Source: Acidobacteriota bacterium (lineage in GTDB: Bacteria; Acidobacteriota; Thermoanaerobaculia; Multivoradales; JAHEKO01). Taken from it: 64,000 bases of DNA. The stretch covers positions 26,287 to 90,286 of the forward strand of contig JAOTWP010000002.1 of NCBI GenBank assembly GCA_029862975.1, written 5' to 3'. Under the pieces are notes generated by a model that was given only the letters and a program-made list of their open reading frames with translations, made no database searches and was not told where the DNA came from. A program made the position numbers and the translations under genes. Shown here one piece after another: positions 8,207-52,355 of the stretch. Within the stretch, counting starts at the first letter, position 1, and each line of letters begins with the position of its first letter.

Positions 8207-8623
8207 TCAGCTGGCGGCCACGCACTGCGCCGGGGGCCCGCCGCCGCAGACGCACGTCACGTCCGGCGCGCAGTAGCACACCGCCGGCACGAAGGTGCAG
8301 CCCTCGCCGACGCACGCCTCGGCGGTCGCCGAGCTCTGCACGAAGCCCTCTTCGCAGGCGCTCGCGGGCTCGGCGCAGTAGTAGGTCTTGTCCTCGGCCT
8401 GGCGCAGCGTGCAGTCGCTCGAGTCGAGGCAGGCCAGCTCGTCCCTGGCGTCGCAAGCGACCTGCCTGGGGGCCTCGACCGGCGGTTGGGTGACGTCCGG
8501 CGGGGGCGATCCGTTCGAGCCGGCCGATCCGCAGGCCAGCAAAAGCCAGCCCACTGCGACGACCTCCAACACCGCCCAAGCCGCCATCGCGATCGACCCC
8601 CAACCCGGTCTGTTGCCGGCCAT
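8207..8623 (-). CDS. Cysteine-rich secreted lipoprotein, hypothetical.
   Basis: Signal peptide with lipobox LLLACGS. 17 Cys in 138 aa. High GC3. An alternative start lies at 8587. Confidence 0.5.
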   Translation of the reverse strand: MAGNRPGWGSIAMAAWAVLEVVAVGWLLLACGSAGSNGSPPPDVTQPPVEAPRQVACDARDELACLDSSDCTLRQAEDKTYYCAEPASACEEGFVQSSATAEACVGEGCTFVPAVCYCAPDVTCVCGGGPPAQCVAAS

Positions 8624-8655
8624 GCCCTCGAGTGTACCGCGCTACGAGAGCTACC

Positions 8656-9258
8656 TCACCCTGCCTTGCGCACGACCCAGGTAGTCATGCAGCGCAGGTC
8701 CTGGACGACGGTCGTCTTGAGCGGGTCGAGCAGGGCGCCGCCGAGCTCGGCCGTCAGTGACATCAGCATCGGCTCGTCGACGACGTAGCGCTCCGTGCCG
8801 TCGGGCAGTGCGAAGCGCCTCCCGCCGAGGGTCCGAAAGCGACCCTCCATCCCGATGGTCGAAGCCAGCCGGCAGAAGAAGAGACCGCCCCGCGCCAGCA
8901 CGCGCCAGGATCCCGCCAGCATGGCCCGGAACTCCTCGTCGCCGGCTGCGAAGTGCAGCACGGCACTCGAGATCACGACGTCGGCGCACGCGTCGGGGAA
9001 GGTCATCGCCGTGAGAGGCTCGGCGCGGAAGTTCTCCTCGGGAAGAGCGGGCGCCAGCTCCCGGGCCAAGGCGCGCACCACGCCCACGGCCTCTGGGTCG
9101 CCGTCGGCGCCCATCACCTCGTAGCCGGCGGCCAGCAGGTAGCGAAGGTTGCGCCCTCGGCCGCAGCCCGCGTCGAAGATTCGCATCCCCGGCGCGATCC
9201 GGCCGCGCACCAGCTGGTCGAAGAGATAGATGTCGAGGCCGGCGAAGCGTTGGGGCAT
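8656..9258 (-). CDS. Class I SAM-dependent methyltransferase.
   Basis: Motif I IFDAGCGRGRN, an acidic-residue loop YEVMGAD, and post-II motif LARGGLFF. Confidence 0.7.
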   Translation of the reverse strand: MPQRFAGLDIYLFDQLVRGRIAPGMRIFDAGCGRGRNLRYLLAAGYEVMGADGDPEAVGVVRALARELAPALPEENFRAEPLTAMTFPDACADVVISSAVLHFAAGDEEFRAMLAGSWRVLARGGLFFCRLASTIGMEGRFRTLGGRRFALPDGTERYVVDEPMLMSLTAELGGALLDPLKTTVVQDLRCMTTWVVRKAG

Positions 9259-9340
9259 CAGACCGGCATGCTACCTCCGAGGCGTTCAAGAGCGGCGTGC
9301 GTACCGCCGTCGTGCTCGTGGCGAGCAAGCTCGTCCCCCG

Positions 9341-9517
9341 GCGGTGTTCGCGGCCGGCGAGTACAAGAACCCCAAGCGCGACCTGCCGTTCGCCCTCGTG
9401 CTCCACATCGCCTTGATCACCGCTCTCTACCTCACCGCGCAGTGGGTGGCGGTCGGCACCCTCGACCACGCCGCGGACTCCGCCACGCCGCTGGCCGATG
9501 GACGGGCACGGCTATGA
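9341..9517 (+). pseudogene. Internal fragment (~55 aa) of an APC-superfamily amino-acid transporter; gene remnant.
   Basis: GEYKNPKRDLPFALVLHIALITALYLTAQWVAVGTL...SATPLAD is the characteristic NPxRDLP region plus a TM helix of APC permeases. Only this fragment is present. No start context is seen, and it sits between two unrelated methyltransferase genes. Confidence 0.4.
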
Positions 9518-9580
9518 TCGGCGGATGACGAATCGCGAGCGATCAGGCTGCGATCAGCGCAGGCCCGTGTCCTCTGACCG

Positions 9581-10438
9581 GTGCTGACGATCGACCGCTT
9601 CTCCAACCAGCACGAATACCGTGAGTTCTGTCGGCGGTCCGAGCCGGAGCTACGTCGCCGGTTCCGGCTCGAGCAGCGGTTGGCCGCAGGCCAGCTGCCG
9701 TTCACGGTGGCCGGCCACTGCGACATCTGCGCGCGGGAGGTCGCTTTTGCCGTCGACTTCGAAGCGGCCGGGGGGGTCTCGCCAGAATGCGTGCCGAACT
9801 GGCGCGAACGGGTGATCTGTCCCAGCTGCGGTCTCAACGCGAGGATGCGAGCCGCGGTGTGCATGGCGAAGGCACACCTTCCTCACGACCAGGGACCGAT
9901 CTACGTCACCGAGAGGAAGACCCCTCTGTTCGCGGCTCTCGAGTCCCTCGGCTGGAACATCGTCGGCAGCGAGTATCTCGGCGATCAGGTCGAGCTGGGC
10001 GGCCGCGACGCGACCGGTGTCCGCAACGAAGACCTGACCCGTCTGACCTTCCCGTCCGGGAGCTTCGGGGGAGTCATCAGTCTCGACGTCCTCGAGCACG
10101 TACCAGACTACGGCAGCGCCCTGGGCGAGCTCGCAAGGGTCCTCGTCGAGGGAGGAGGACTCCTGTTGAGCGCGCCGTTTCGCGCTGACCGAACCCGGCA
10201 CCTGGTACGGGCACGACGCGCAGACGACGAGATCGAATACCTCGAGCCGCCCGAGCACCACGACGACCCGACCGATCCGGCCGGTTGCCTGGCCTGGTAT
10301 CACTTCGGCTGGGAGATCCTCGAGAACCTCCGCGCGGCCGGTTTCTCGGGCGCGAGAGCCTGCCTCTACTGGTCGGAGCGCCTCGGCTGCTTCGGACCGG
10401 AGCAGTTCCTGTTCGAAGCCATGAAGACCCCGAGGTAG
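9581..10438 (+). CDS. Methyltransferase with an N-terminal Cys4 zinc-ribbon (TcaB9-like architecture).
   Basis: N-terminal CDIC...CPSC pair. Class I MTase core with FGGVISLDVLEHVPD. 40 nt upstream of the radical SAM pair. Confidence 0.65.
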   Translation: MLTIDRFSNQHEYREFCRRSEPELRRRFRLEQRLAAGQLPFTVAGHCDICAREVAFAVDFEAAGGVSPECVPNWRERVICPSCGLNARMRAAVCMAKAHLPHDQGPIYVTERKTPLFAALESLGWNIVGSEYLGDQVELGGRDATGVRNEDLTRLTFPSGSFGGVISLDVLEHVPDYGSALGELARVLVEGGGLLLSAPFRADRTRHLVRARRADDEIEYLEPPEHHDDPTDPAGCLAWYHFGWEILENLRAAGFSGARACLYWSERLGCFGPEQFLFEAMKTPR

Positions 10439-10478
10439 GGAGGCCGAGAGGAGGAGGTAGACTCGGGGGATCTCCACG

Positions 10479-11546
10479 ATGTCCGATCGCGCTCAGACTG
10501 ACCTGCCGACCTGCGCCGACAGCTCGGACGACCGTCCATTCTGCGAAGCCCCCTTTCGCAAGTTGCTCGTCGCAGGTGACAAGCAGGCCTACCTGTGCTG
10601 CTGGGCGCCACAGGCGATCGGCGATCTCACGCAACAGACTTCCGAGGAAGCCTGGAACTCCAGCCGGGCGCAGGACTTCAGGGCGTCGATTCACGATGGA
10701 ACCTTCAGGTACTGCGACCGGGGGCTTTGCCCGTGGCTTCAGGCCGACAGGCTTCCCCGGCGCTCCGAGGTTGCCGACCCGTACCTCGCCGGGCTCATCG
10801 CTTCTGGCGCCACCGAGATCAGCGCGGGCTTCTCCGAGCTGCTGCTGGGCTACGACCGAAGCTGCAACCTCGCCTGCCCGTCCTGCCGCCCCGGGCTCCA
10901 CTCCGCCGGAGGCGACGAGCTCGACCAGATCCTGGCGGTCCACGAGAACGTCGTCGGTGACCGCCTCCAGAACCTGCACGGCCTCGAGAAGCTGTTCGTC
11001 TCGGTCGACGGCGACGCCTTCACCAGCCGCGTCTACCGCGACCTGCTGTTCGAGATGAAGGCCGCGGACTTCCCGGAACTGCGGATTCGAATCATGACCA
11101 ACGGGCTGCTGTTTACGCCGCGGATGTGGGAGCGACTGGCCGGAATCCGCGATTGCATCAAGGAGGTCGTGATCTCGATCGACGCCGCAACGCCGGAGAC
11201 CTACGAGATCGTGCGCAAGGGGGGTAGCTTCGCTGTCGTGCTCGAGAATCTCCGATTCCTCGGCAAGCTCTACCGCGATGGACGCCTGGCCGGGCTTTCG
11301 ATCACCTTCGTCGTCCAGCGGGTCAACTACCGAGAGATGCGGCCGTTCGCGGAGCTGGGTGCGAGCATTCCCTGCGGCGTCACGTTCATCAAGATGATGA
11401 ATCCGGGCCACATTCCCCTCGGCGAGTTCGTGCACGACCCCGCGCATCCGGAGCACGCGGACTTGTTGGAGACCTTGAAGGACCCGATCTTGCGGACGTC
11501 GTCGGTGAACGTCGACGCTTTCGCGGACCTGCTCGCCGTGCGATGA
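10479..11546 (+). CDS. Radical SAM enzyme with an N-terminal Cys-rich SPASM-like domain.
   Basis: CX3CX2C radical SAM motif CNLACPSC at about residues 128-135. An N-terminal Cys cluster C..C...CCW...WN...C..CPW precedes it. Its stop overlaps the start of the next gene (ATGA at 11543-11546). Confidence 0.7.
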   Translation: MSDRAQTDLPTCADSSDDRPFCEAPFRKLLVAGDKQAYLCCWAPQAIGDLTQQTSEEAWNSSRAQDFRASIHDGTFRYCDRGLCPWLQADRLPRRSEVADPYLAGLIASGATEISAGFSELLLGYDRSCNLACPSCRPGLHSAGGDELDQILAVHENVVGDRLQNLHGLEKLFVSVDGDAFTSRVYRDLLFEMKAADFPELRIRIMTNGLLFTPRMWERLAGIRDCIKEVVISIDAATPETYEIVRKGGSFAVVLENLRFLGKLYRDGRLAGLSITFVVQRVNYREMRPFAELGASIPCGVTFIKMMNPGHIPLGEFVHDPAHPEHADLLETLKDPILRTSSVNVDAFADLLAVR

Positions 11547-12751
11547 GGTTCGCGAAGTCGAACCGAGCGGCGTTCACCAACTTCCTGGCCGCCAGGTACG
11601 AGCGGCTCACCGGCACCACCACGGTCAGCTCACGTCCCTACTCCATGCTCGTCGACGTGGCGGCCAACTGCCACCTGCGCTGCCCCTCGTGCCCGACCGG
11701 GGTCGAGAACGAGGCCCATCGCAGAGGGGATTCGCAACGCTTCCGGGATCGCGGCCTGATGGGGCGGGAGCTCTTCGCCGCGCTCCTCGACGAGATCGGT
11801 GCCTGCCTGTTCCATCTGATGCTCTACAACTGGGGGGAGCCGCTCTTCCACCCCGAGCTGCCGCTCTTCATCGCCAAGGCGAAGCAGCTCGACATCACGA
11901 CCGAGATCCACACCAATCTCTCTCTGCAACTCTCCGAGAGTCGTATGAGGTCTCTCCTGGAGGCGGGCATCGACGAGATCGCAGCCTCGATCGACGGCTT
12001 CTCGCAGCAGTCGTATTCGACCTATCGCCGCGGCGGCGACTTCGAGCTGGCGCGCGACAATCTCGTCCGGCTCGCCGAGCTTCGCACCGATCTCGGACTC
12101 GGGACCAGGATCGTGTGGAACTGCCTCGTGTTCTCGTTCAACGAGCGCGAGCTCGAGGCCGCGGAGGCCTTCTGCTGCGAGCACGGGATCGTCTTCCAGC
12201 GTCGCGAGGCCGCGATCGACGTCGGAAGGACGCCCGGATGGGTGCCGAGTCATCGCCGTCACGAGCTGGCCGGGCCGCGGACCCCGGTCGCCGCGGCGGC
12301 GGCGCACGAGCAAGAAGTGCCGCCGCGACCCTCGTCCTGTGGCTGGCATTACTCCTTCTCCGTCGTCAACGTCAGCGGGTCGATCTCGCCCTGCTGTGCG
12401 GTTTGGAGCCAGGAGCACGACATCGGCCGGTTCGACGGCGACCGCGAGCGCTTCGCGTCGATCTGGAACGGCCCGGAGCTTCGCGGTGCGCGCGCCCTTG
12501 CCAACCCCGAGCGCGGAGCCGCCGAGCCGGCAGGCCACGCCATCTTGTGCCAGGCCTGCCCCTTCGATGATGGCGTCAAGGACCTCTACTCTCCCTTCGA
12601 CGCCGATGTCAAACGTCGCTTTGACGAGGTCTTCGGGCGCACCGACCCCATGCTCGCCGCCGCCTTCGACCTCGTGACGGAGCGGCCCGACGAGTTCGTC
12701 GAGTTCTACCGTGCCCATCGGGAACGGATCGAGAATGGAGCAGGCCGATGA
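11543..12751 (+). CDS. Radical SAM / SPASM-domain enzyme.
   Basis: CX3CX2C motif CHLRCPSC at about residues 43-50. C-terminal Cys-rich domain SCGW...PCCAVW...IWNG...CQACP. Stop overlaps the start of the sulfatase-like gene (ATGA at 12748-12751). Confidence 0.75.
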   Translation: MRFAKSNRAAFTNFLAARYERLTGTTTVSSRPYSMLVDVAANCHLRCPSCPTGVENEAHRRGDSQRFRDRGLMGRELFAALLDEIGACLFHLMLYNWGEPLFHPELPLFIAKAKQLDITTEIHTNLSLQLSESRMRSLLEAGIDEIAASIDGFSQQSYSTYRRGGDFELARDNLVRLAELRTDLGLGTRIVWNCLVFSFNERELEAAEAFCCEHGIVFQRREAAIDVGRTPGWVPSHRRHELAGPRTPVAAAAAHEQEVPPRPSSCGWHYSFSVVNVSGSISPCCAVWSQEHDIGRFDGDRERFASIWNGPELRGARALANPERGAAEPAGHAILCQACPFDDGVKDLYSPFDADVKRRFDEVFGRTDPMLAAAFDLVTERPDEFVEFYRAHRERIENGAGR

Positions 12752-14376
12752 GCGGCCGGTCCAGGGGGCTGGGCGTCGTCTGCCTGGCCATGGCCGTGGT
12801 TGCGACCGGCGGCTGCGAGCAGCCGCCGCGTCAGACGCGGGGTTACGTCCTGATCTCCGTCGACACCTTGCGCGCCGATCACCTCGGCGTGTATGGCTAC
12901 GGGCGCGACACCAGCCCTTTCCTCGACCAGCTCTCCGAGCGTGCCTTGGTCTTCGAGCACGCCTTCTCGCAGTTTCCCGGAACGCTACCGTCGCACATGT
13001 CGATGTTCACCGGTCTCTACCCCTCCGAGCACGGCGTCTTCCCGCCAGCGAGCGTCCTCGACGAGGAGGTCGAATCGCTGCCGGCCGTGTTTCGGCGCGG
13101 GGGATTCCGGACGGCCGGCTACACGGAAGGCGGCTACATGTCCGGGCACTGGGGATTCTCGCGGGGCTTCGAGCAGTTCAGCGACCGGACCGCGCACATG
13201 GCAACCGACGTCGAGGTCACCCTGGAGCGTGCGGGGAGCTTCCTGCGTGGGCTCGAGGATGGCGAGCGGTTCTTCCTCTTTATTCACACCTACGCCGTCC
13301 ACGACCCCTACTTTCCCCCCCAGCGGTACCGCGCCCTGTTCTGGGACGGCGAGGCTCCTGACACGTTTGCGCCGACCGGGCCGAATCTCGTGGAGGTCAA
13401 TCGCGGGGAGCGCGCCGTCACCCGCGTCGCCGTCGACTATTACGAGGCGTTGTACGACGCTGGAATCCGCTACGTCGACGACTGTCTGCGGGACTTCTTC
13501 ACCCTGCTCGACGACCTCCGGCTCGCCTCGGACACGACCGTCGTCCTGACCTCGGACCACGGCGAGGAGTTCCTGGACCACGGCAGGCTGGTTCACGAGC
13601 AGATGTACCGGGAGCTACTCCACGTCCCGCTCATCGTGGTCCATCCGGACCTGACGAGCGGGCGCCGAATCCCGGCTCTCACCCAGAGCATCGACATCGC
13701 GCCGACCTTGTACGAGCTGGCCGGAATCGAGGACCCACCTCGCATGTCCGGCCGCAGCCTGGTCGACGTCCTCGAGGGCGAGAGTGATCGCCTTCGCCCC
13801 GATGCGTACGCGGAGGGCGGCCCGATCGACCGCACACTCTTCCTGCAACGTGGCGAGCAGCTCTTCCAGTACCTGCGGTTCTTTCCGACCACCACTCCCA
13901 ACGGCAGGTGGCAGAGTGACTCGCTCGAGCTGAGGGTGCCGTCGCCGCGGCTCGAGCTCCGGGTCCGCAGCTTCTACGAGCCGCGCCGTTTGACCCTGAG
14001 CGTCGCGGGGGAGGTGATCTCGGAGCTGGACGTCGAACCGACACCGCGCAGGGTCGCGGTGGATCTCGGACTGCCGGACCGGACCGTGAAGATCGAGGCG
14101 GACGGATGCGTCGTGCCCGCGGCGGTCGGAGTCAGCGCGGACACACGGTGCCTCGCCTTCATGGTCGATCACCTCGACCTCGGGCGCGCCGAACTCTACG
14201 AGATCGGCAGTGACCCTCGGGAGACCATTGACCTGACGACGATCGATCCCGAGCTCGCCGAGAGGCTACGCCATCGCCTCAAGGGCTACGACGACAGAGT
14301 CCCCGTCGGCGCCCGCACCACCCGCGAGCTCCCGCCGGAGGTCAGAAGACAGCTCGAAGCCCTCGGCTATCTCTAG
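12748..14376 (+). CDS. Sulfatase-family (alkaline-phosphatase superfamily) lipoprotein carrying Thr at the FGly position (Thr-type sulfatase-like hydrolase/transferase).
   Basis: Lipobox ATGGC. Metal-site motif ISVDTLRADHLGVYGY. The nucleophile loop TLPSHMSMFTG aligns to the sulfatase CSPSRxxLLTG loop with T for C and H for R. LTSDHGEEF motif is present. The C-terminus LEALGYL is shared with two paralogues. Confidence 0.8.
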   Translation: MSGRSRGLGVVCLAMAVVATGGCEQPPRQTRGYVLISVDTLRADHLGVYGYGRDTSPFLDQLSERALVFEHAFSQFPGTLPSHMSMFTGLYPSEHGVFPPASVLDEEVESLPAVFRRGGFRTAGYTEGGYMSGHWGFSRGFEQFSDRTAHMATDVEVTLERAGSFLRGLEDGERFFLFIHTYAVHDPYFPPQRYRALFWDGEAPDTFAPTGPNLVEVNRGERAVTRVAVDYYEALYDAGIRYVDDCLRDFFTLLDDLRLASDTTVVLTSDHGEEFLDHGRLVHEQMYRELLHVPLIVVHPDLTSGRRIPALTQSIDIAPTLYELAGIEDPPRMSGRSLVDVLEGESDRLRPDAYAEGGPIDRTLFLQRGEQLFQYLRFFPTTTPNGRWQSDSLELRVPSPRLELRVRSFYEPRRLTLSVAGEVISELDVEPTPRRVAVDLGLPDRTVKIEADGCVVPAAVGVSADTRCLAFMVDHLDLGRAELYEIGSDPRETIDLTTIDPELAERLRHRLKGYDDRVPVGARTTRELPPEVRRQLEALGYL

Positions 14377-16358
14377 CGCCCCGCGGTCTCTTCACCGACG
14401 ATCGGAGAGCCCGGGTCGGTCGGGTTGCCGGAGAGGCGCCCACCCGTCTTTGCCGCATCCGCGTTCACCTGGCGCGTCAGGCGCGGGACCCACTCCGGGA
14501 CGTAGACTCCGAGAAGACAGGTCAAGGCAATCAGGAGCCACTCGGGAGAGGCGAGAGGGATGTGGGGCTCCAGGTACAGGCTGGCGGCCACTGCCCCGGA
14601 CAAGGCGACTCCTCCCTTGACGAGAAGCCACCGCCGGCGGCCTCTACGCCCGCCCAGCGCCTTGCGCCAGGTCCATGGCTCCGGGTCTTCCCACCCGTGC
14701 TGCCAACAGCGATTGAAGCGTTCGAAGAGCGCGGCCCGCCGAGCCAGATCGGCCCCGGGCGGGCCGAGCACCGCCGCATCCTGCCGATGATTGAAGACCG
14801 ACACCCCTCTCACGCAGACGGCTTCCGAGCCCGTCGCCTGCAGAGTGAAGCGCCCCGCTTGGACGAACGGCAGTGCGGCCTGGATCGACGTCCACGCCGC
14901 AGGGATCGGTCCCAGCCGGACCTCTTGCAGATCTTCGGTCTCGAATCGTACGGACAGCGCCGCGCGGCCCGCGGAACGGACTTCCGCTCGCATCATGAAC
15001 GGCCTTTCCGGCGTGTGCCGGCCGGGGTTCCATCCTGCTTCGATCTCCTGGCTCACGGACGATCCAGGGGGGAGCACCAGACAGGACGCCGCATCGGCTC
15101 CGTGCATCACGGACGGTCCGTCCGCGCCTGTCGTTTCGACCCGCCATCCACTCAACCCCGATGCAAAGTTGGAGTTGAGCAGGATGTTGCTCTCGGTCGG
15201 CTCGAGACTCCAGAACGCATATCCGATCGTCCGCTCGTAGATGATCGGCATCGCCCGCTCCAGGAAGCGGAGGACTTGCGCCTCTCCCTGAAACCGCGAC
15301 GCAAAGGAGAAGCCGGGCGTGGAATCGTCGACGTTGAGCTGACTCACGAAAATCGGTCGGCCGGCCGCCTGGAGCGCCAGCTGCCGGAGGAGATCTCGAA
15401 GGTTGGCGAGCGCGACGTCGGGATCGAGGAAACGGCCGTCATTGCTGGCCCCCCAGGTACCGTTCCAGCAGAAGCTCACGACGTCGTACGCTTCGGGGAG
15501 CTTCCAGGTCCGCTCGTGGTCGAGCCAGGCCAGGGACCCCCCTTCGTCGATCCAGGAATCGGGGTCGACCCTGACCTCGAACGACAGCCGAGCGTCCGGA
15601 TCCCCCTTCTTCACGGCTCTGCCGATCGTCGGGAGGATCCGCTCCTGGAGGCGTTCGTCGCTGAACAACAGGAGATCGCGATATGCGAGTGACGCGGGCG
15701 TCGGCAGCGGCACGTTCTCGTAGCGTTCATGGTCGGTATCCCAGCGTTGATTCCAGTCCGACAGGCTCCGTCGACGGAGGTAGTCCTGGAAGCTCCGGCT
15801 CTCGCGGGCGGCCGTCAGTCGCCGCTCCCGATCGCCGCTCGTCACGCCGAGATAACACTGGAGGTCCTCCAGGGAATGGAGGAGGAAGAGAACGTTGCGG
15901 CGCCCCGCGAGTCGCCGCGCGGTCTCGCCGGAGAACTCGGCGTAGGCTTCGATCTCCGAGTCATCGAGGAACAGCGAGTGTGCGTTGTAGCACCCTCCCG
16001 CGATCCCTCGAGGAACGTGCTCGGCCGAACCGACTCTGAGGATCGCGTACATCCTCATCGCCTCGAGCCGGTCGAGCAGATGGTCGAGCCGGCCATACGC
16101 GTCGTCGTCGTAGACCGGCGGATCGACACGGGGCTGGAATACTCCCCACGGCAGCGAGACCAGCCCGGTGTTGAAATGAAGACCGGCCAGCCGAGTCAAC
16201 TCGGCGTCGACCGCGGCGGCAGTGAAGTTCGACCAGAGGTTGTAGTTCCAGTTTCCCTGCCAGCAGAAGGCACCGGAGATTCGAAACTCGGGGAATCGCA
16301 AGGCCTCGGCGGCCGGCAGGAACGGCCGCGTCCTCCAGTCGCGGATCGGCGCCTCCAT
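14373..16358 (-). CDS. Putative glycoside-hydrolase-like protein (TIM-barrel, cellulase-like) with a CBM4/9-like domain and a C-terminal transmembrane anchor.
   Basis: 661 aa. The central region ends with NILLNSNFASGLSGW, a typical CBM4_9 N-terminal motif. Two C-terminal hydrophobic helices are present and there is no N-terminal signal peptide. High GC3. Confidence 0.45.
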   Translation of the reverse strand: MEAPIRDWRTRPFLPAAEALRFPEFRISGAFCWQGNWNYNLWSNFTAAAVDAELTRLAGLHFNTGLVSLPWGVFQPRVDPPVYDDDAYGRLDHLLDRLEAMRMYAILRVGSAEHVPRGIAGGCYNAHSLFLDDSEIEAYAEFSGETARRLAGRRNVLFLLHSLEDLQCYLGVTSGDRERRLTAARESRSFQDYLRRRSLSDWNQRWDTDHERYENVPLPTPASLAYRDLLLFSDERLQERILPTIGRAVKKGDPDARLSFEVRVDPDSWIDEGGSLAWLDHERTWKLPEAYDVVSFCWNGTWGASNDGRFLDPDVALANLRDLLRQLALQAAGRPIFVSQLNVDDSTPGFSFASRFQGEAQVLRFLERAMPIIYERTIGYAFWSLEPTESNILLNSNFASGLSGWRVETTGADGPSVMHGADAASCLVLPPGSSVSQEIEAGWNPGRHTPERPFMMRAEVRSAGRAALSVRFETEDLQEVRLGPIPAAWTSIQAALPFVQAGRFTLQATGSEAVCVRGVSVFNHRQDAAVLGPPGADLARRAALFERFNRCWQHGWEDPEPWTWRKALGGRRGRRRWLLVKGGVALSGAVAASLYLEPHIPLASPEWLLIALTCLLGVYVPEWVPRLTRQVNADAAKTGGRLSGNPTDPGSPIVGEETAGR

Positions 16359-16420
16359 GGTCGCCGAATCATCGCATAGGCGCCCGGAGCCTCGAGGGGG
16401 CGCGTCAACAACAGTCCAGG

Positions 16421-17626
16421 CTAGCCTTCAAGACGCGCGACGCGGATCGTCGAGACGCCCTCGCCGGCCGCCGTCTCGACCCAGGCGACGAAGAGCTCGG
16501 CGCCGGCCCGGGCCAGGCGTGGGATGCCGCTGGCCCGCGAGGCGGCGGTCGTCGCGACCGTGCGGCTCTCGAGGATCCCGGAGCCGTCGACGCGGGCCAG
16601 GCGCAGCTGAGCCCCGTCGCCGGCGGCCGCGAGCCAGCTGACCCAGGCGCCGCCGCCCGCCGCCAGCGCCAGGTCGACGCGCCCCAGGGGGGTGCCGTCG
16701 TCGACGACGACGGGGGCGCCGAAGCTCGCGCCCGCGTCCGTCGAGAAGGCGACCTGGACGCGCGGCCGCTGGTCGGCGGCGGTGAACCAGGCCGCGGCCA
16801 CCTCGCGCCCCCGGGCCTCCGCCGCCGGGCCGTTGACCGGGCAGCCGGGGATCGTCCAGCCGTCGTCGTGCAGCGTCGCCGGAGCGGTCCAGCCGGCGGG
16901 GGTGCGGCGCGTCACGCCGATGTCGCGCACTTCCTCCCGCGAGCGATCGCGGTAGAACGCGATCGGGCTTCCGGCGGCGGCCACGAGCTCCGCCGGGCAG
17001 CACTCGCACACCCGCGCGTCGAGGACCTCCGCGGTCCCGACCGTCTCGCCGACCGGCGCGGTGCGCAAGGCCATCGGCCCGCCGTCGAGCATCGCCCGGC
17101 CGTCCAGCCACACGGCGCGCAGGCCGTCGCCTTCCGCCGTCCAGGCCACGAAGCCGTGCTCGGTGGGCGTCCCGTCGTCGTGGAGCATCCCCCGCGGCTG
17201 CCAGGTCACGCCGCCGTCGGTCGAGCGGGCCAGGAAGATGCCGTAGGCGTAGGTCTCCTCTCCGAGCTTCGCCAGCCAGTGGGCCCACAGGGTACCGTCG
17301 CCGGCCAGGGCGAGCTTGGGAACGTCGGCCCAGTTGGCGAAGAAGTCCGTCCCCTCGGCGATGACGGCCGGCTCGCTCCACGCGCCGTCGTGCAGGCGGG
17401 AGGCGACCAGGCGCCAGGACGGCTCGAGCCACGAGAGCAGGAGGTCGTCGCCGTCGGTCACGAGGTGTGGTGCGATCGCCCCCGGCCCCGCCGGGGGCTG
17501 GGCCGTGGCCTCCGGCGCCGCCGGAGGCGTCGCCTCCGGGGCGCCGCAGGCGACCGCGGCCAGGGCGGCGAGCAGACCGGGCAGCAGTCCATGCCCCCAG
17601 GCTCGAATGCGGCGCGGGTGGGTCAT
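16421..17626 (-). CDS. BNR/Asp-box repeat (sialidase-fold) lipoprotein.
   Basis: True start is the internal ATG at 17626 (MTHPRRIR...), followed by a signal peptide with lipobox AAVACG. BNR motifs STDGGVTW and FSTDAGASF. The 665-aa track ORF is an N-terminal over-extension. Confidence 0.65.
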   Translation of the reverse strand: MTHPRRIRAWGHGLLPGLLAALAAVACGAPEATPPAAPEATAQPPAGPGAIAPHLVTDGDDLLLSWLEPSWRLVASRLHDGAWSEPAVIAEGTDFFANWADVPKLALAGDGTLWAHWLAKLGEETYAYGIFLARSTDGGVTWQPRGMLHDDGTPTEHGFVAWTAEGDGLRAVWLDGRAMLDGGPMALRTAPVGETVGTAEVLDARVCECCPAELVAAAGSPIAFYRDRSREEVRDIGVTRRTPAGWTAPATLHDDGWTIPGCPVNGPAAEARGREVAAAWFTAADQRPRVQVAFSTDAGASFGAPVVVDDGTPLGRVDLALAAGGGAWVSWLAAAGDGAQLRLARVDGSGILESRTVATTAASRASGIPRLARAGAELFVAWVETAAGEGVSTIRVARLEG

Positions 17627-20874: not shown

Positions 20875-23553
20875 TTGAAACGCCCGCCCTCGACCCCCGG
20901 CCGGTCCGCGCCCCGCCCCTCGCAGGCCGCGCCGCGAGCTCCGGGGGTCGCCCTCTGCCTCCTCGCGGCGCTCACCGTTGCCTGCGGGCGGGACGGCGAG
21001 CCGGCTCGTGTGCGAGTCGTCGATCGCCTCATCGCCGCGGAACCGGCGGGCGCGTTCGAGGACGGCGTTGCCGGACGGCGGACGACCCTCTCGGCGTGGA
21101 ATCTCGCATCGGCCGGCGACCGGCAGCAGTGGTCGGTCGTCGCCGGGGGCGGCTGGGACGCCCGCCGCGGCGGTCTCCCGCTCAAGGCCGATCTGGTGCG
21201 GCTCCGCGCCGCGGCGCCGATCGCCACGGCGGGCGTCGAGAGCCTGCGGCTCGACCTGAGCATGGCGCGGCGCTGCCGGGCGATGGTGCGCTGGCGGGGC
21301 GCGCCGGAGGCGACTTTCGCCGAGCCGTCGGCAAGCCCGGCGACGAGCCTGCGGGTCGAGCTCGCCGGCCGCCCGGCCTGGGCCGGAATCGTCCACGATC
21401 TCGCTGTGACCCTGCGCGGCTGCAAGGGCGGCGTCCTCGTCGGCATCGCTCTCGAGGGTCACGCCGAGCGCCTCGACGACACGTTCGCGCAGGCCTGGAG
21501 GATCACGCTCGGCACCGACTCTCGCCGCGCGCTGCTCCTGCCGCCGGAGACCGAGCGGCGCTGGCGCCTGCCGGAGGCGCTGCCCGCCGGCCACCTGCGC
21601 CTCGGACTGGGGGTAGGCGGAGCACTCGGCGCCGCGAATCGGGTCACCATCGCGACCACCGCGGCAGGTCGCGAGACCGCGCTCCTCGAGGTGCCGCTCG
21701 AGCCGGCGGACCCGGCCACGGCGCGCTGGCTCGACTTGGATCTCCAACTCACCAACCTCGCGGCCGGCAGCGAGATTCTGTTTCGCGCCACCTCGGACTC
21801 GCCGTGGAAGGGGGGCGCCGGCGTCCCCGCGCTGGCCGAGCCACGGATCCTCACCGCCGCCGACGACCCACGCCCGAACGTCCTCCTCATCTCGGTCGAC
21901 ACCCTGCGAGCCGACCATCTGTCGCTCTACGGCTACCCGCGGGAGACCTCGCCGCATCTCGCCGGCCGCGCCGCCAGCTCCGGGATCACGTTCGAGAGCG
22001 TCGTCGCTCCGGCCGCCTGGACGCTCCCGTCGCACGTCTCCATGTTCTCGGGCTTCGACGCCTTGCGCCACGGGGTCAACCACGAGGCGACGCCCGCTCC
22101 GGACTCCCTGCGGTTCGTCGCCGAGTCGTTCCGGGACGCCGGCTACGAGACCGTCGCCTTCACCGCCGGCGGCTACGTCTCGCCGGAGTTCGGGTTCGCC
22201 CGCGGCTTCGAGTCGTTCCGGGCCCGGCGGCCGCCGAAGCGCTCGGTGGAGGCGGCGCGCGCCGAGCTCGGCCAGGGCCTCGACGAGATCGTGGAGTGGC
22301 TCGCCGACTCCCACGACCAGCCCTTCTTCGCTTTCTTCCACACCTACGAGGTCCACGCGCCGTTCTGGGCTCGCGAGCCGTACTTCGAGCGCTTCGGAGG
22401 GCGGCCCGAAGACGTGCCGCTGGGCTATGCGTTCACCAGCCAGGATCGCGATCTGGGAGAGCGGGTCTTCGTCATCCCCGCGGCCGACGGCAAGCCCCTC
22501 CCCGACCCTGACCTGGAGGTCATCGAGCGGCTCTACGACAGCGGAATCGCCTATCTCGACGCCGAGCTCGAGCGCCTCTTCGACGGCCTGGCGGCCGCGA
22601 ATCTGACCGAGCGCACGATCGTCGTCCTGACCTCGGACCACGGCGAGCTGCTGGGCGAGCACGGCCTCGCGGGACACGGACCGGCCTACGACCAGGTCGT
22701 CATGATCCCGCTCGTCCTCTGGGTGCCCGGTGTGGCGGGCGGGCGGCGCATCGACGAGCAGGTGCGGCTGGTCGACGTGGCGCCGACGCTGCTCGACCTC
22801 GCCGGCATCGAGGCCGGCGGCGCCCTCGACGGTCAGAGCCTGCGGCCGCTGTGGGAGGGCGGCCCGGACTACGAAGAGCGGCCCGCGTGGATCCACGCGG
22901 GCCAGTTCGGCGTCGCGATGCGCGTCGCCGATCGGCTGAAGTACGTCTGGCACCGCGCGCCCTGGGATCGCTTCGGCGCCGGCGAGGAGCTCTTCGACCT
23001 GCGCGCCGATCCCGCCGAGCGACGGGACCTCTCCGACTCCCGGTCCGAGCTGCTCGCCTCAGCCCGCGAGCGCACCCGCGCCTGGCTGCTCGAGACCCTC
23101 CCGGGCCTGCGCGTCACCCTCGACAATCGGTCCGCCGAGACCTACGAGCTGACCCTGACGAGCAACCAGAACTGGCTCTCCAGCATCACCAACTTCGATT
23201 GCGACGATCTCGGCTGGCGGCCCCCCCACGGCCTGCTCGTCAGGCTCGCCGCCGGGGAAAGCTGCCTCCTCGTCCTCGAGCACCTGCGGGCCAGCGATCT
23301 CCTCGTCGAGGCCCGGAGCCTCCAGGCCGAGGGCGGGGGCGCCGCGGCAGGTCTGACGCTCGCGACGGGCGAGCTTCCGGGCTCGGTGCTGCGCCTCGTC
23401 GCCGGCGCGGCCTGGGAGCCGGCCGCGGATCCCGGAGACGGAGCTCTCGCCCTCTCCGTCGAGTGGCAGCGCGAGCCCGCCGCGGCGCAGGCCGACGTCC
23501 GGATCGACGAGTCCCTGGCCGAGCAGCTGCGGGCCCTCGGGTACCTCGAGTAG
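20875..23553 (+). CDS. Large lipoprotein: an N-terminal ~330-aa beta-rich domain, then a Thr-type sulfatase-family domain, then a C-terminal extension.
   Basis: Lipobox LTVACG. LLISVDTLRADHLSLYGY and AWTLPSHVSMFSG (Thr at the nucleophile position), LTSDHGELLGEHG. C-terminus AEQLRALGYLE. Confidence 0.8.
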   Translation: MKRPPSTPGRSAPRPSQAAPRAPGVALCLLAALTVACGRDGEPARVRVVDRLIAAEPAGAFEDGVAGRRTTLSAWNLASAGDRQQWSVVAGGGWDARRGGLPLKADLVRLRAAAPIATAGVESLRLDLSMARRCRAMVRWRGAPEATFAEPSASPATSLRVELAGRPAWAGIVHDLAVTLRGCKGGVLVGIALEGHAERLDDTFAQAWRITLGTDSRRALLLPPETERRWRLPEALPAGHLRLGLGVGGALGAANRVTIATTAAGRETALLEVPLEPADPATARWLDLDLQLTNLAAGSEILFRATSDSPWKGGAGVPALAEPRILTAADDPRPNVLLISVDTLRADHLSLYGYPRETSPHLAGRAASSGITFESVVAPAAWTLPSHVSMFSGFDALRHGVNHEATPAPDSLRFVAESFRDAGYETVAFTAGGYVSPEFGFARGFESFRARRPPKRSVEAARAELGQGLDEIVEWLADSHDQPFFAFFHTYEVHAPFWAREPYFERFGGRPEDVPLGYAFTSQDRDLGERVFVIPAADGKPLPDPDLEVIERLYDSGIAYLDAELERLFDGLAAANLTERTIVVLTSDHGELLGEHGLAGHGPAYDQVVMIPLVLWVPGVAGGRRIDEQVRLVDVAPTLLDLAGIEAGGALDGQSLRPLWEGGPDYEERPAWIHAGQFGVAMRVADRLKYVWHRAPWDRFGAGEELFDLRADPAERRDLSDSRSELLASARERTRAWLLETLPGLRVTLDNRSAETYELTLTSNQNWLSSITNFDCDDLGWRPPHGLLVRLAAGESCLLVLEHLRASDLLVEARSLQAEGGGAAAGLTLATGELPGSVLRLVAGAAWEPAADPGDGALALSVEWQREPAAAQADVRIDESLAEQLRALGYLE

Positions 23554-52246: not shown

Positions 52247-52355
52247 CAGGAGCTCTCCACGGGCTGCTGGCTGCTGCCCCATGATCGGGCACCGCTCGCC
52301 GCCGCGCACCACCCCCCGGGGCGGCCGACCCGCCACCCCGGCGATCGCGGCGGGT

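What the first reader, a model, noticed from the sequence alone, without database searches (positions are those of the whole stretch)
9581..14376. Translationally coupled operon: Zn-ribbon methyltransferase, two radical SAM/SPASM enzymes with reciprocal domain order, and a Thr-type sulfatase-like lipoprotein.
Four + strand genes are packed with ATGA stop/start overlaps at 11543-11546 and 12748-12751. The first radical SAM enzyme carries a Cys-rich SPASM-like module (C...CCW...WN...C..CPW) at its N-terminus, before the CX3CX2C core. The second carries the homologous module (C...CCAVW...IWNG...CQACP) at its C-terminus, after the core. This permuted pair is unusual. Radical SAM/SPASM enzymes beside sulfatase-family genes normally mean anaerobic sulfatase maturation. 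Here, however, the sulfatase-like protein has Thr, not Cys/Ser, at the FGly position (TLPSH versus CxPxR). The pair therefore must have a different substrate, possibly a peptide, lipid or sugar also modified by the upstream TcaB9-like methyltransferase. No obvious small precursor-peptide ORF was seen, but the APC-transporter pseudogene fragment and the divergent methyltransferase at 8656-9258 mark this as a remodelled accessory region.
Basis: partly seen in the sequence, partly recalled or inferred. Interest (0 to 1): 0.7.

Follow-up and report, generated by a model that had tools for sequence, protein, structure and literature searches.

The report
Radical SAM glycan-tailoring gene island
A horizontally acquired five-gene island in an Acidobacteriota genome most likely tailors a cell-surface sugar polymer and is not a sulfatase-maturation or peptide system; it has unusual details but is built from known kinds of enzymes.

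Summary
Four + strand genes sit at 9581-14376, with ATGA overlaps at 11543 and 12748. The first radical SAM (rSAM) enzyme carries its Cys-rich auxiliary module N-terminally and the second C-terminally; the two modules are homologous (hhalign 92.6%, E 4e-7). The sulfatase-like protein has TLPSH where sulfatases have C/S-x-P-x-R.

The interpretation needs correcting:
- **Domain type and order.** Both modules are one-cluster "twitch" domains. N-terminal twitch rSAMs are a curated NCBIfam family (NF033640), and G2's relatives occur in at least 581 places in species-representative genomes, often in paralog arrays.
- **Thr in G4.** Thr is a clade signature: 143 of 146 relatives have it.
- **Size of the unit.** By GC3 the unit has five genes. 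It includes the convergent gene at 14373-16358, a GH-A-like barrel plus carbohydrate-binding domain.
- **Conserved partners.** That fifth gene is the best-conserved partner of the N-twitch rSAM and is fused to one elsewhere. The methyltransferase and the sulfatase-like gene are only sporadic partners.
- **Context of G3 relatives.** Four of five examined lie in ABC-transporter polysaccharide clusters beside methyltransferases.

Best reading (about 0.45): a glycan-tailoring cassette. The exact chemistry is unknown.

The parts
9300..9517 (+). Remnant of an amino-acid (APC) permease gene at the left edge of the island
   Evidence: Pfam AA_permease E 0.0077, profile positions 213-252 of 470. GC3 is 0.80. 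The support is weak.
9581..10438 (+). G1: class I SAM-dependent methyltransferase with an N-terminal four-Cys Zn-ribbon (C47, C50, C80, C83)
   Evidence: Pfam Methyltransf_11 E 1.2e-9 and Methyltransf_23. The best PDB match is D-glucose O-methyltransferase 6uv6, E 6.8e-7, and there is no TcaB9 hit. The Cys pairs are read. Methyltransferases sit next to G3-type rSAMs, or are fused to them, elsewhere.
10479..11546 (+). G2: radical SAM enzyme with an N-terminal twitch (half-SPASM) auxiliary Fe-S domain
   Evidence: Pfam SPASM at aa 22-80, then Radical_SAM at aa 128-292. NF033640 N_Twi_rSAM matches end to end at 55.3 bits, below its 170-bit cut-off. The AF2 model has pLDDT 92.7. Foldseek top hits are BlsE, viperin, SuiB, SkfB, NifB and DesII.
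10536..10736 (+). G2 N-terminal twitch module (C22, C40, C41, C79, C84)
   Evidence: These Cys are 98-100% conserved in 61 relatives, and the module is homologous to the G3 C-terminal module (hhalign 92.6%, E 4.4e-7). The model shows a beta-hairpin at aa 28-38 followed by helices at aa 55-72.
10863..10886 (+). G2 CX3CX2C radical SAM cluster motif (CNLACPSC)
11543..12751 (+). G3: radical SAM enzyme with a C-terminal twitch domain, BtrN-like in architecture
   Evidence: Pfam Radical_SAM at aa 41-181, then SPASM at aa 266-326. The best PDB sequence matches are BtrN (E 5e-5), PqqE, BlsE, Tes and DesII. All NCBIfam hits are far below their cut-offs.
11669..11692 (+). G3 CX3CX2C motif (CHLRCPSC)
12338..12559 (+). 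G3 C-terminal twitch module (C266, C284, C285, C336, C339)
   Evidence: These Cys are 100% conserved in 51 relatives. The module ends in CX2C only and lacks CX2CX5CX3C. It aligns with the BtrN auxiliary-cluster region.
12748..14376 (+). G4: probable lipoprotein of the alkaline-phosphatase superfamily (Pfam Sulfatase fold) with a Thr nucleophile
   Evidence: Pfam Sulfatase E 3.8e-47 and Phosphodiest E 3.8e-16 over aa 34-98. Family invariants are D39, T79, D270 and H271. C23 is conserved in at least 90% of members, and C454 and C468 are invariant.
12982..12996 (+). TLPSH motif occupying the C/S-x-P-x-R (formylglycine) position
   Evidence: Alignment to solved sulfatases. Thr is present in 143 of 146 relatives and His in 129 of 146. 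Coordinates were checked.
14373..16358 (-). G5: clan GH-A-like (beta/alpha)8 barrel plus CBM-like beta-sandwich, with a C-terminal hydrophobic hairpin and no signal peptide.
   Evidence: No Pfam hit. The family is rare: 8 homologs, some with faint Glyco_hydro_35 hits. The AF2 model has pLDDT 70.6. Foldseek matches GH5+CBM6, GH35 and endoglycoceramidase at E 5e-11 to 1e-9. Hydrophobic segments lie at about aa 578-625 after RRGRRR. G5 is 40% identical over 544 aa to the C-terminal part of an N-twitch rSAM fusion protein.
11543..11546 (+). ATGA stop/start overlap between G2 and G3
12748..12751 (+). ATGA stop/start overlap between G3 and G4
14373..14376 (.). Four-base overlap of the convergent stop codons of G4 and G5

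Best explanation
G1-G5 (about 9.3-16.4 kb) is one horizontally acquired cassette that tailors a carbohydrate, most likely a lipid-linked or polymeric envelope polysaccharide.

Inferred steps at the cytoplasmic face of the membrane:
- G5, a GH-A-like barrel plus carbohydrate-binding sandwich, is tethered by a C-terminal hydrophobic hairpin and binds or trims the glycan.
- G2 and G3 each use SAM and one auxiliary [4Fe-4S] cluster to abstract a hydrogen atom from a sugar. The outcome would be an oxidation, epimerisation, dehydration, decarboxylation or C-C bond formation of the BtrN / BlsE / DesII type.
- G1 methylates the product.

Inferred step after export: the lipoprotein G4 uses Thr79 and a D39/D270/H271 metal site to transfer or hydrolyse a phosphoester (less likely a sulfoester) substituent.

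What is shown: the domain content, the co-transcription signals, the compositional unity of the five genes, the gene-fusion and neighbourhood links, and the absence of a formylglycine site.

What is inferred: the substrate class, the topology and the order of steps. The exact radical reaction is unknown.
For: Unity of the cassette. All five genes have GC3 0.81-0.87 and both flanks have 0.90-0.96.

G2-G5 link. The closest G2 homologs (53-58% identity) sit beside G5 homologs (40% identity) in L001, L002 and L003. In L002/L003 a G5-like domain with a CBM_4_9 hit above the gathering score is fused to an intact N-twitch rSAM. L003 also carries a G3 homolog (42% identity).

L089 locus. It combines a G5 homolog, a G2-type rSAM, a PMT_2 glycosyltransferase, an Acyl_transf_3 protein and two Thr-type sulfatase-like lipoproteins with the motifs TIPAH and TKPSV.

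G3 relatives. Four of five examined contexts (L094, L095, L177, L178) are polysaccharide clusters. Two carry an ABC2_membrane/Wzt_C transporter (L094, L178). Other recurring genes are GT2/GT4 glycosyltransferases, Bac_transf, Wzx/Wza/Wzz, an adjacent class I methyltransferase and a second rSAM. rSAM-twitch-methyltransferase fusion proteins also exist.

G2-family neighbours. The recurrent ones are an ABC ATPase (14 loci), a GT4 (8 loci), methyltransferases and further rSAM paralogs.

Nearest solved relatives. BtrN, BlsE, DesII and viperin act on sugars, aminocyclitols or nucleotides.

G4. It has conserved metal ligands, a Thr nucleophile, a conserved lipobox Cys and a conserved Cys pair in the C-terminal domain, which fits an extracytoplasmic enzyme.
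Against: - The island contains no glycosyltransferase, flippase or sugar-nucleotide gene. The nearest GT4 is about 12 kb away in core DNA.
- G1 and G4 are not conserved partners. Among 80 G2-family loci, none has a G1 relative and one has a G4 relative, about 8 kb from the rSAM gene. Among 80 G4-family loci, 3 have an rSAM neighbour.
- The top NCBIfam hits for G2 and G3 are "maturase" families, although all lie far below their cut-offs.
- Some G3 relatives carry TPR domains, which usually bind proteins.
- In G5 the strand that carries the nucleophile Glu in clan GH-A enzymes reads SQLN, with invariant Gln340, so G5 may bind rather than cleave (this is inference).
- No member of any of the five families has been characterised experimentally in the sources I could search.
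Confidence: 0.45

Rival explanations
1. Peptide or protein maturation. G2 and G3 are RiPP-type or metalloenzyme-type maturases that cross-link or modify a peptide encoded elsewhere, or a protein such as G5.
For: SPASM/twitch rSAMs are best known as peptide maturases. The top NCBIfam hits are the tungsten-oxidoreductase maturase, the Geobacter metalloenzyme maturase, and the mycofactocin and PqqE families. Structural hits include SuiB and SkfB. TPR-rSAM fusions occur among G3 relatives. Multi-rSAM arrays are typical of some RiPP clusters.
Against: All those hits are 50-57 bits against cut-offs of 265-400 bits. Neither protein has an RRE/PqqD domain. The only real intergenic gap holds a permease remnant, and there is no credible short ORF. 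The island has no peptidase or exporter. The conserved partners are carbohydrate-type proteins, including a CBM fusion.
Confidence: 0.15
2. Lipid or glycolipid tailoring. The rSAM pair modifies an acyl or alkyl chain or the head group of a membrane lipid, G5 acts like an endoglycoceramidase on a glycolipid, and G4 handles a phospho head group.
For: G5 matches endoglycoceramidases I and II. G3 weakly matches the tetraether synthase Tes (19.6 bits). rSAM enzymes with extra Fe-S domains, including an N-terminal one in Tes, modify lipids (PMC13459092). The G2 family is common in taxa I know to have unusual lipids: Sphingomonas, Bacteriovoracaceae, Pedobacter, Myxococcota and anammox bacteria (the lipid point is my own knowledge). 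G5 is membrane-anchored.
Against: The Tes match is to the generic rSAM core. No lipid-synthesis gene is in the island or among the recurrent neighbours. The G5 structural matches span many GH-A families equally. In the five Sphingomonas loci that share this synteny, the gene lies among conserved neighbours (cytochrome c maturation, alanine dehydrogenase and Kup genes) that give no clue to its function.
Confidence: 0.12
3. A mosaic with no shared pathway. The genes were assembled by chance in an accessory region and act independently.
For: The full gene order is found only in contigs that carry identical G2 and near-identical neighbours. G1 and G4 are absent from the closest relatives' loci. 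The G4 family is mostly unlinked to rSAMs.
Against: The genes share GC3 and have tight overlaps. Pairwise links recur in unrelated lineages: G2+G5, G2+G3+G5, G2+G5+Thr-type AP enzyme, G1-like+G3, and rSAM directly upstream of TLPSH-type genes in L104, L127 and L144.
Confidence: 0.1
4. Anaerobic sulfatase maturation. The rSAMs convert an active-site residue of G4 to formylglycine.
For: The only support is the adjacency of rSAM/SPASM-type genes to a Pfam Sulfatase gene.
Against: G4 has Thr at the site and no C/S-x-P/A-x-R motif anywhere. The whole clade has Thr. There is no anSME model hit at E <= 0.01. G2 and G3 have one auxiliary cluster site each, not the two of anSME. The rSAMs beside other TLPSH genes are not anSME either.
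Confidence: 0.02

Closest known systems
NCBIfam NF033640, 'twitch domain-containing radical SAM protein' (N_Twi_rSAM)
   Same: The architecture matches end to end: an N-terminal twitch module followed by the CX3CX2C core. G2 aa 20-323 align to profile positions 3-315. All 25 tested G2 relatives hit the model.
   Different: G2 scores 55.3 bits against a cut-off of 170, and the best relative reaches only E 3.3e-27. G2 therefore belongs to a sister clade, not the curated family. No function is attached to the family, and no paper in the searchable library mentions an N-terminal twitch or SPASM domain.
BtrN (2-deoxy-scyllo-inosamine dehydrogenase, PDB 4M7T), the founding twitch-domain rSAM
   Same: It is the best PDB sequence match to G3. 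It shares the rSAM core plus a C-terminal single-cluster domain, with the C ... C(C) ... CX2C ligand pattern aligned. It acts on a sugar-like small molecule.
   Different: The match is weak (E 5e-5, about 25 bits). G3 is about 130 aa longer and has an extra conserved Cys, C211. The substrate and the reaction are unknown.
Anaerobic sulfatase-maturating enzymes (AtsB / anSMEcpe) with Cys- or Ser-type sulfatases
   Same: An rSAM gene with a SPASM-family domain sits next to a Pfam Sulfatase gene.
   Different: G4 has no convertible Cys or Ser and no Arg in the motif. The auxiliary domain is a twitch with one cluster, not a full SPASM with two. No anSME model is hit.
[quoted passage not shown]
   Same: Thr occupies the nucleophile position at the start of the helix. 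The TLPSH motif resembles the NPP motif T-F-P-N-H, which I cite from my own knowledge. Pfam Phosphodiest and ENPP4 match this segment. The Asp and Asp-His metal ligands are conserved.
   Different: Overall, G4 is closest in sequence to the formylglycine-type arylsulfatase / phosphonate-monoester-hydrolase clade, at 76-82 bits. It is a lipoprotein with an extra conserved C-terminal domain of about 190 aa, not a polytopic membrane enzyme like EptA or LtaS. The clade is uncharacterised.
Clan GH-A glycoside hydrolases with a CBM (GH5+CBM6 arabinoxylanase, GH35 beta-galactosidase, GH5 endoglycoceramidase)
   Same: The predicted fold is a (beta/alpha)8 barrel followed by a beta-sandwich. A homolog has a CBM_4_9 hit. 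An invariant Glu164 follows strand 4, and an invariant Trp383 lies on strand 8.
   Different: Identity is 10-13%, there is no Pfam hit, and TM-scores are low (0.2-0.5). Strand 7 reads SQLN where the nucleophile Glu is expected. The protein faces the cytoplasm and is fused to an rSAM in some organisms.

Membership tests
Anaerobic sulfatase-maturating enzyme (anSME) | The cognate sulfatase carries C/S-x-P/A-x-R | tested here: not met
   TLPSH occupies the aligned position. There is no [CS]x[PA]xR motif anywhere in G4. Thr is present in 143 of 146 relatives.
Anaerobic sulfatase-maturating enzyme (anSME) | The protein matches the curated anSME sequence model or a solved anSME | tested here: not met
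   No anSME family appears among the NCBIfam hits at E <= 0.01 for G2 or G3. No anSME chain appears among the PDB hits at E <= 0.01.
Anaerobic sulfatase-maturating enzyme (anSME) | A full C-terminal SPASM domain with the 7-8 Cys that bind two auxiliary clusters | tested here: not met
   G3 has C266, C284/285 and C336-x2-C339 only. G2's module is N-terminal and has 5 Cys.
Radical SAM superfamily | CX3CX2C motif and a Pfam PF04055 hit above the gathering score | tested here: met
   G2 has CNLACPSC and scores 43.6 bits. G3 has CHLRCPSC and scores 35.8 bits. The cut-off is 29.5.
SPASM/twitch subfamily | A PF13186 hit above the gathering score with conserved Cys ligands | tested here: met
   The scores are 27.7 and 27.2 bits against a cut-off of 21.5. 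The Cys are 98-100% conserved.
SPASM/twitch subfamily | The auxiliary domain is a C-terminal extension of the rSAM core | tested here: not met
   G3 meets this feature. G2 does not, because its module lies at aa 20-86, before the core. The review PMC13459092 defines SPASM domains as C-terminal extensions.
SPASM/twitch subfamily | The domain actually binds one (twitch) or two (SPASM) auxiliary [4Fe-4S] clusters | not testable with these tools
   This needs iron/sulfide quantification and EPR or Moessbauer spectroscopy. The Cys count suggests one cluster in each protein.
NCBIfam NF033640 N_Twi_rSAM | An N-terminal twitch module followed by the rSAM core | tested here: met
   The alignment runs end to end: G2 aa 20-323 against profile positions 3-315 of 398.
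NCBIfam NF033640 N_Twi_rSAM | A score at or above the curated cut-off of 170 bits | tested here: not met
   G2 scores 55.3 bits. The best of 25 relatives reaches E 3.3e-27.
Formylglycine-dependent (S1) sulfatases | The sulfatase fold with conserved metal-binding Asp and Asp-His | tested here: met
   PF00884 E 3.8e-47. D39, D270 and H271 are invariant.
Formylglycine-dependent (S1) sulfatases | A Cys or Ser that is converted to formylglycine | tested here: not met
   Thr79 occupies the position.
Thr-nucleophile AP-superfamily phosphodiesterases/transferases | Thr at the nucleophile position with an NPP-like motif | tested here: met
   The TLPSH motif is present. PF01663 matches aa 34-98, and ENPP4 matches aa 33-99.
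Thr-nucleophile AP-superfamily phosphodiesterases/transferases | Phosphoryl-transfer activity | not testable with these tools
   This needs assays with pNP-phosphate, bis-pNPP, pNP-sulfate and a T79A variant.
RiPP radical SAM maturase system | An adjacent precursor-peptide gene | tested here: not met
   The only gap longer than 62 nt (9259-9580) holds a permease remnant and a 29-aa ORF with no family hit.
RiPP radical SAM maturase system | An RRE/PqqD-like recognition domain | tested here: not met
   No such Pfam hit in G2 or G3 at E <= 0.01.
TcaB9-type sugar C-methyltransferase | The Methyltransf_13 Zn-binding domain and the Methyltransf_14 C-terminal domain | tested here: not met
   G1 hits only generic Methyltransf_11/23/25. 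There is no TcaB9 chain at E <= 1. A four-Cys ribbon is present.
Clan GH-A glycoside hydrolases (G5) | A (beta/alpha)8 barrel | tested here: met
   The AF2 model and Foldseek hits to GH5, GH35 and GH30 at E down to 5.5e-11. The model confidence is only moderate (pLDDT 70.6).
Clan GH-A glycoside hydrolases (G5) | A catalytic Glu pair on strands 4 and 7 | tested here: inconclusive
   Invariant E164 follows strand 4. Strand 7 ends in SQLN with invariant Q340 and N342. There is no residue-level structural superposition.
Prokaryotic viperin (pVip) defence | A match to the PADLOC pVip models | tested here: inconclusive
   The hits are only 20-27 bits and cover the generic rSAM core. Viperins lack a twitch domain (my own knowledge).

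The most novel reading that the evidence does not exclude
The rSAM enzymes may oxidise the conserved active-site Thr of the TLPSH-type protein (G4 and its paralogs) to a beta-keto residue. That residue would be a ketone analogue of formylglycine whose hydrate is the true nucleophile. This would define a third, "Thr-type" class of radical-SAM-matured alkaline-phosphatase-superfamily enzymes.

What leaves this open:
- G3-like rSAM genes lie immediately upstream of TLPSH or TLPSQ genes in at least three other lineages (L104, L127/L144, L089).
- Sulfatase maturases typically act in trans, so a lack of adjacency elsewhere is weak evidence against (my own knowledge).
- To my recollection, anSMEs have been reported to oxidise Thr in substrate-analogue peptides in vitro (not checked here).

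What argues against it:
- Thr is a proven direct nucleophile in this superfamily.
- 77 of 80 G4-family loci lack an rSAM neighbour.
- The rSAMs' conserved partners are carbohydrate-type proteins.

A less radical novel reading has a probability of about 0.2: radical SAM chemistry guided by a carbohydrate-binding domain and performed directly on a polymeric glycan.
Probability: 0.04. Interest if true: 0.9.

Novelty: new variant of a known kind. Interest (0 to 1): 0.4.

Why it matters
Every part belongs to a known superfamily, but no family here has a characterised member. G2's clade of N-terminal-twitch rSAMs is widespread, with at least 581 hits in species-representative genomes, and it often occurs in arrays of up to nine paralogs. 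I found no published function for it.

The gene fusion of such an rSAM to a GH-A/CBM-like domain is a concrete, testable lead to its substrate class, as is the placement of G3 relatives beside methyltransferases in ABC-transporter polysaccharide clusters. If confirmed, this would add radical chemistry to the known ways bacteria decorate surface polysaccharides.

The TLPSH clade also deserves correct annotation. These proteins are named "sulfatase" in databases, but they cannot form formylglycine.

Tried and rejected
- **anSME reading.** Rejected.
- **TcaB9-like label for G1.** Rejected.
- **Mn-dependent arylsulfatase EfAS as a non-formylglycine precedent.** The paper shows it uses Cys61 converted to formylglycine, so it is not a precedent.
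- **Literature searches.** Searches for an N-terminal twitch or SPASM domain, and for SPASM rSAMs in exopolysaccharide or O-antigen clusters, returned no papers or nothing relevant. The ladderane/lipid rSAM review gave only the Tes precedent for an N-terminal Fe-S domain.
- **PADLOC defence models.** Only weak pVip core hits of 20-27 bits.
- **Promoter and terminator scan of 8600-16600.** Nothing above shuffle expectation.
- **Short-ORF search in the gaps.** No credible precursor.
- **Fold search of G5 against AFDB50.** The library was unavailable.
- **Enrichment of rSAMs next to G4-family genes.** Three of 80 loci is about what chance gives, so I make no enrichment claim.
- **Neighbourhood of the broad G2 family.** At 35-42% identity it is heterogeneous. 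In the five Sphingomonas loci that share this synteny, the gene lies among conserved cytochrome c maturation, alanine dehydrogenase and Kup genes that are uninformative about its function.

Full report
**Source and layout.** The window comes from an Acidobacteriota metagenome-assembled genome. Source databases name the exact G2 and G3 proteins as "radical SAM protein [Acidobacteriota bacterium]". The window is about 72% G+C, with a dip to 65-68% between 10 and 16 kb. The four reported + strand genes are:
- G1, 9581-10438
- G2, 10479-11546
- G3, 11543-12751
- G4, 12748-14376

The ATGA overlaps are at the stated coordinates, and the G1-G2 gap is 40 nt. A fifth gene, G5 (14373-16358, minus strand), converges on G4 with a 4-nt overlap.

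**The unit has five genes.** Third-position G+C is 0.83, 0.86, 0.86, 0.87 and 0.81 for G1-G5. The nine flanking genes examined have 0.90-0.96 (a whole-window view is). G1-G5, plus a short remnant of an amino-acid permease gene (weak hit, E 0.0077), therefore form one compositional island.

**The two radical SAM enzymes.** Pfam places the SPASM-family module before the core in G2 and after it in G3, both above the gathering score.
- I aligned 61 G2 relatives and 51 G3 relatives, cut out the Cys-rich modules and compared them with hhalign. The modules match each other at probability 92.6%, E 4.4e-7. The cores match each other at 98.4%. The two cross-comparisons score below 1%. The "reciprocal domain order" is therefore real homology.
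- Conserved cysteines are C22, C40, C41, C79 and C84 in G2. In G3 they are C211, C266, C284, C285, C336 and C339.
- Neither protein has the CX2CX5CX3C motif that builds the second auxiliary cluster of a full SPASM domain. Both are better called twitch domains with one auxiliary cluster.
- G3's best solved relative is the founding twitch enzyme BtrN, and the alignment covers the auxiliary-cluster cysteines.
- The G2 model is confident (pLDDT 92.7). It shows the expected beta-hairpin plus helix at the N-terminus. Its nearest solved folds are BlsE, viperin, SuiB, SkfB, NifB and DesII.

- NCBIfam already curates NF033640, "twitch domain-containing radical SAM protein". It matches G2 end to end, though at 55 bits against a cut-off of 170. 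All 25 tested relatives hit it, none strongly. G2 belongs to a sister clade.
- I clustered the genes within five positions of G2 homologs in 80 loci. In 31 loci there were two to nine related rSAM paralogs. L057 has two G3-type and two N-twitch genes side by side.
- Still, I found no paper in the searchable library that mentions an N-terminal twitch or SPASM domain. A 2026 review defines SPASM domains as C-terminal extensions (PMC13459092). The family is uncharacterised but not unknown.

**The sulfatase-like protein.** G4 has the sulfatase fold (E 3.8e-47).
- In phmmer alignments to solved sulfatases, T79-L-P-S-H83 lies on the C/S-x-P-x-R motif. No alternative motif exists in the protein.
- A full HMMER search of 1.84 billion cluster representatives gave a full-length family of 540-560 aa at 40-52% identity.
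- Among the 146 best representatives that cover the site, 143 have Thr and 129 have His at the Arg position. The consensus is TLPSH.
- D39, T79, D270 and H271 are invariant. The lipobox Cys23 is at least 90% conserved. A Cys pair in the C-terminal domain is invariant. G4 is therefore a probable extracytoplasmic lipoprotein with an intact metal site and a Thr nucleophile.
- From my own knowledge, the motif resembles T-F-P-N-H of nucleotide pyrophosphatase/phosphodiesterases. Pfam Phosphodiest and ENPP4 both match exactly this segment.
- The window carries two more sulfatase-domain genes with Thr at this position, at 20875 and 23590, in core-composition DNA.
- Thr is thus a clade signature, and the proteins cannot be formylglycine sulfatases.

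**Why this is not sulfatase maturation.** No residue is available for conversion. Neither rSAM hits an anSME model or structure. Each has one auxiliary cluster site rather than two.

**Neighbourhood evidence.** The full order G1-G4 appears only in three other contigs that carry identical G2 and near-identical neighbours. The partial links are informative:
- **G2 with G5.** The closest G2 homologs (53-58% identity) are next to G5 homologs in L001, L002 and L003. L003 adds a G3 homolog at 42% identity. In L002/L003 the G5-like region is the C-terminal 540 aa of a 980-992-aa protein. The N-terminus of that protein is an intact N-twitch rSAM, with C13, C31/C32, C72-x2-C75 and CNARCVHC. That fusion carries a CBM_4_9 hit above the gathering score.
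- **L089.** This locus is from an unrelated metagenome. It has a G5 homolog, a G2-type rSAM, a PMT_2 glycosyltransferase, an Acyl_transf_3/2OG-oxygenase protein and two sulfatase-like lipoproteins with TIPAH and TKPSV motifs.
- **G3 relatives.** Four of the five contexts examined for relatives at 45-50% identity are polysaccharide clusters. Two of the four carry an ABC2_membrane/Wzt_C transporter. Other recurring genes are GT2/GT4 glycosyltransferases, Bac_transf, Wzx/Wza/Wzz, a Pel9A-like beta-helix protein, a second rSAM and an adjacent class I methyltransferase. The fifth context is not a polysaccharide cluster. Fusions of rSAM, twitch and methyltransferase exist, and one matches G1 at E 6e-12.
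- **G4 relatives.** In 80 metagenome loci they have a G3-like rSAM nearby in only three cases: L104, L127 and L144. There the rSAM gene is directly upstream of a TLPSH or TLPSQ gene. The two rSAMs I scanned (L104, L127) are not anSME-like. This rate is about what chance would give, so I make no enrichment claim.
- **The broad G2 family.** None of 80 loci has a G1 relative. One has a G4 relative, about 8 kb from the rSAM gene.

**G5.** It has no Pfam hit and only eight database relatives, some with faint Glyco_hydro_35 hits.
- The model (pLDDT 70.6) is a (beta/alpha)8 barrel followed by a beta-sandwich.
- It matches GH5+CBM6 arabinoxylanases, GH35 beta-galactosidases and endoglycoceramidases at E 5e-11 to 1e-9, with low TM-scores and 10-13% identity.
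- It lacks a signal peptide. It ends in two hydrophobic segments preceded by RRGRRR, which suggests a domain that faces the cytoplasm and is tethered to the membrane. The fusion to an Fe-S enzyme in other organisms agrees with this. Several homologs instead have an N-terminal anchor.
- Glu164 after strand 4 is invariant. Strand 7, where clan GH-A enzymes carry the nucleophile Glu, reads SQLN with invariant Gln340. G5 may therefore bind rather than hydrolyse. This rests on reading strands from a moderate-confidence model.

**Most likely mechanism (confidence about 0.45).** The island is a tailoring cassette for a carbohydrate, probably a lipid-linked polysaccharide built at the cytoplasmic face.
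- G5 holds or trims the glycan.
- G2 and G3 carry out hydrogen-abstraction chemistry on sugar carbons.
- G1 methylates.
- After export, the lipoprotein G4 handles a phosphoester substituent.

The parts list, the unity of the island, the fusions and the neighbourhoods are shown. The substrate class, the topology, the order of steps and all the chemistry are inferred. The main weaknesses are the absence of glycosyltransferase or sugar-nucleotide genes in the island and the sporadic conservation of G1 and G4.

**Rivals.**
- Peptide or protein maturation (0.15). The support is only sub-threshold maturase hits and TPR-fused relatives. There is no precursor ORF, no RRE domain, no peptidase and no exporter.
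- Lipid or glycolipid tailoring (0.12).
- A mosaic with no shared pathway (0.10).
- Formylglycine maturation (0.02).

**Most novel reading not excluded (about 0.04).** The rSAMs could oxidise the active-site Thr of TLPSH proteins to a ketone analogue of formylglycine.

**Verdict.** The finding is an uncharacterised variant assembled from known enzyme kinds. It is less surprising than proposed, but it offers a concrete lead, the rSAM-CBM/GH-like fusion, to the function of a widespread orphan rSAM clade.

Noticed in passing
window 20875-23553 (+) and 23590-25806 (+): Two more sulfatase-domain genes sit in core-composition DNA (GC3 0.91-0.92). Each has an N-terminal extension of about 320 aa, and both have Thr at the formylglycine position (WTLPSH and WTRAAV).
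   Followed up: partly
window 43172-46318 (-) and 46328-47821 (-): A TIR_2-domain protein (E 7.7e-11) lies next to an nSTAND1 NTPase with WD40 repeats (E 2.3e-90). The pair looks like a conflict or defence system.
   Followed up: no
L075, L076, L036, L072 (Brocadia); L062 (Scalindua); L067 (Planctomycetia): Arrays of 5-9 related twitch/SPASM radical SAM paralogs lie within five genes of the G2 homolog in these anammox-lineage genomes, and GT4 glycosyltransferase genes recur as neighbours of G2 homologs (8 loci, the cluster representative being in L075). I did not check whether they overlap the proposed ladderane clusters.
   Followed up: no
L104 5862-7088 and 7123-8129; L127 8276-9253 and 9323-11329; L144: A C-terminal SPASM/twitch rSAM gene lies directly upstream of a Thr-type (TLPSQ or TLPSH) sulfatase-like gene in unrelated high-GC and low-GC metagenome contigs. 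The two rSAMs scanned (L104, L127) are not anSME family members.
   Followed up: partly
L003 1939-4917 (-) and L002 3-2942 (-): A 980-992-aa fusion protein combines an N-terminal twitch module, a radical SAM core, a GH-A-like barrel and a CBM_4_9 domain. Its C-terminal part is 40% identical to G5.
   Followed up: yes
window 15327-15353 (-), G5 aa 336-344: The G5 family has invariant Gln340 and Asn342 (SQLN) on the strand where clan GH-A enzymes carry the nucleophile Glu. It also has an invariant S-x-E-x-R-x-D motif on strand 5. G5 may be a non-hydrolytic or non-canonical barrel.
   Followed up: partly
L088, L089, L091-L093: In these loci the G5 homolog converges on, and overlaps the end of, a 1098-1245-aa protein with no Pfam hit. 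In L089 the C-terminal part of that protein contains an NEP motif typical of GH-A enzymes.
   Followed up: no
window 48026-52336 (-): A 1436-aa protein carries duplicated BadF/BcrA-type ATPase domains and DUF2229, which resembles a CoA-enzyme activase.
   Followed up: no
window 9581-10438 (+), G1 aa 105-125: The usual glycine-rich SAM-binding motif I is not evident in G1; the sequence reads IYVTERKTPLF. The Pfam methyltransferase alignment starts only at profile position 12. G1 may be a divergent SAM binder.
   Followed up: no
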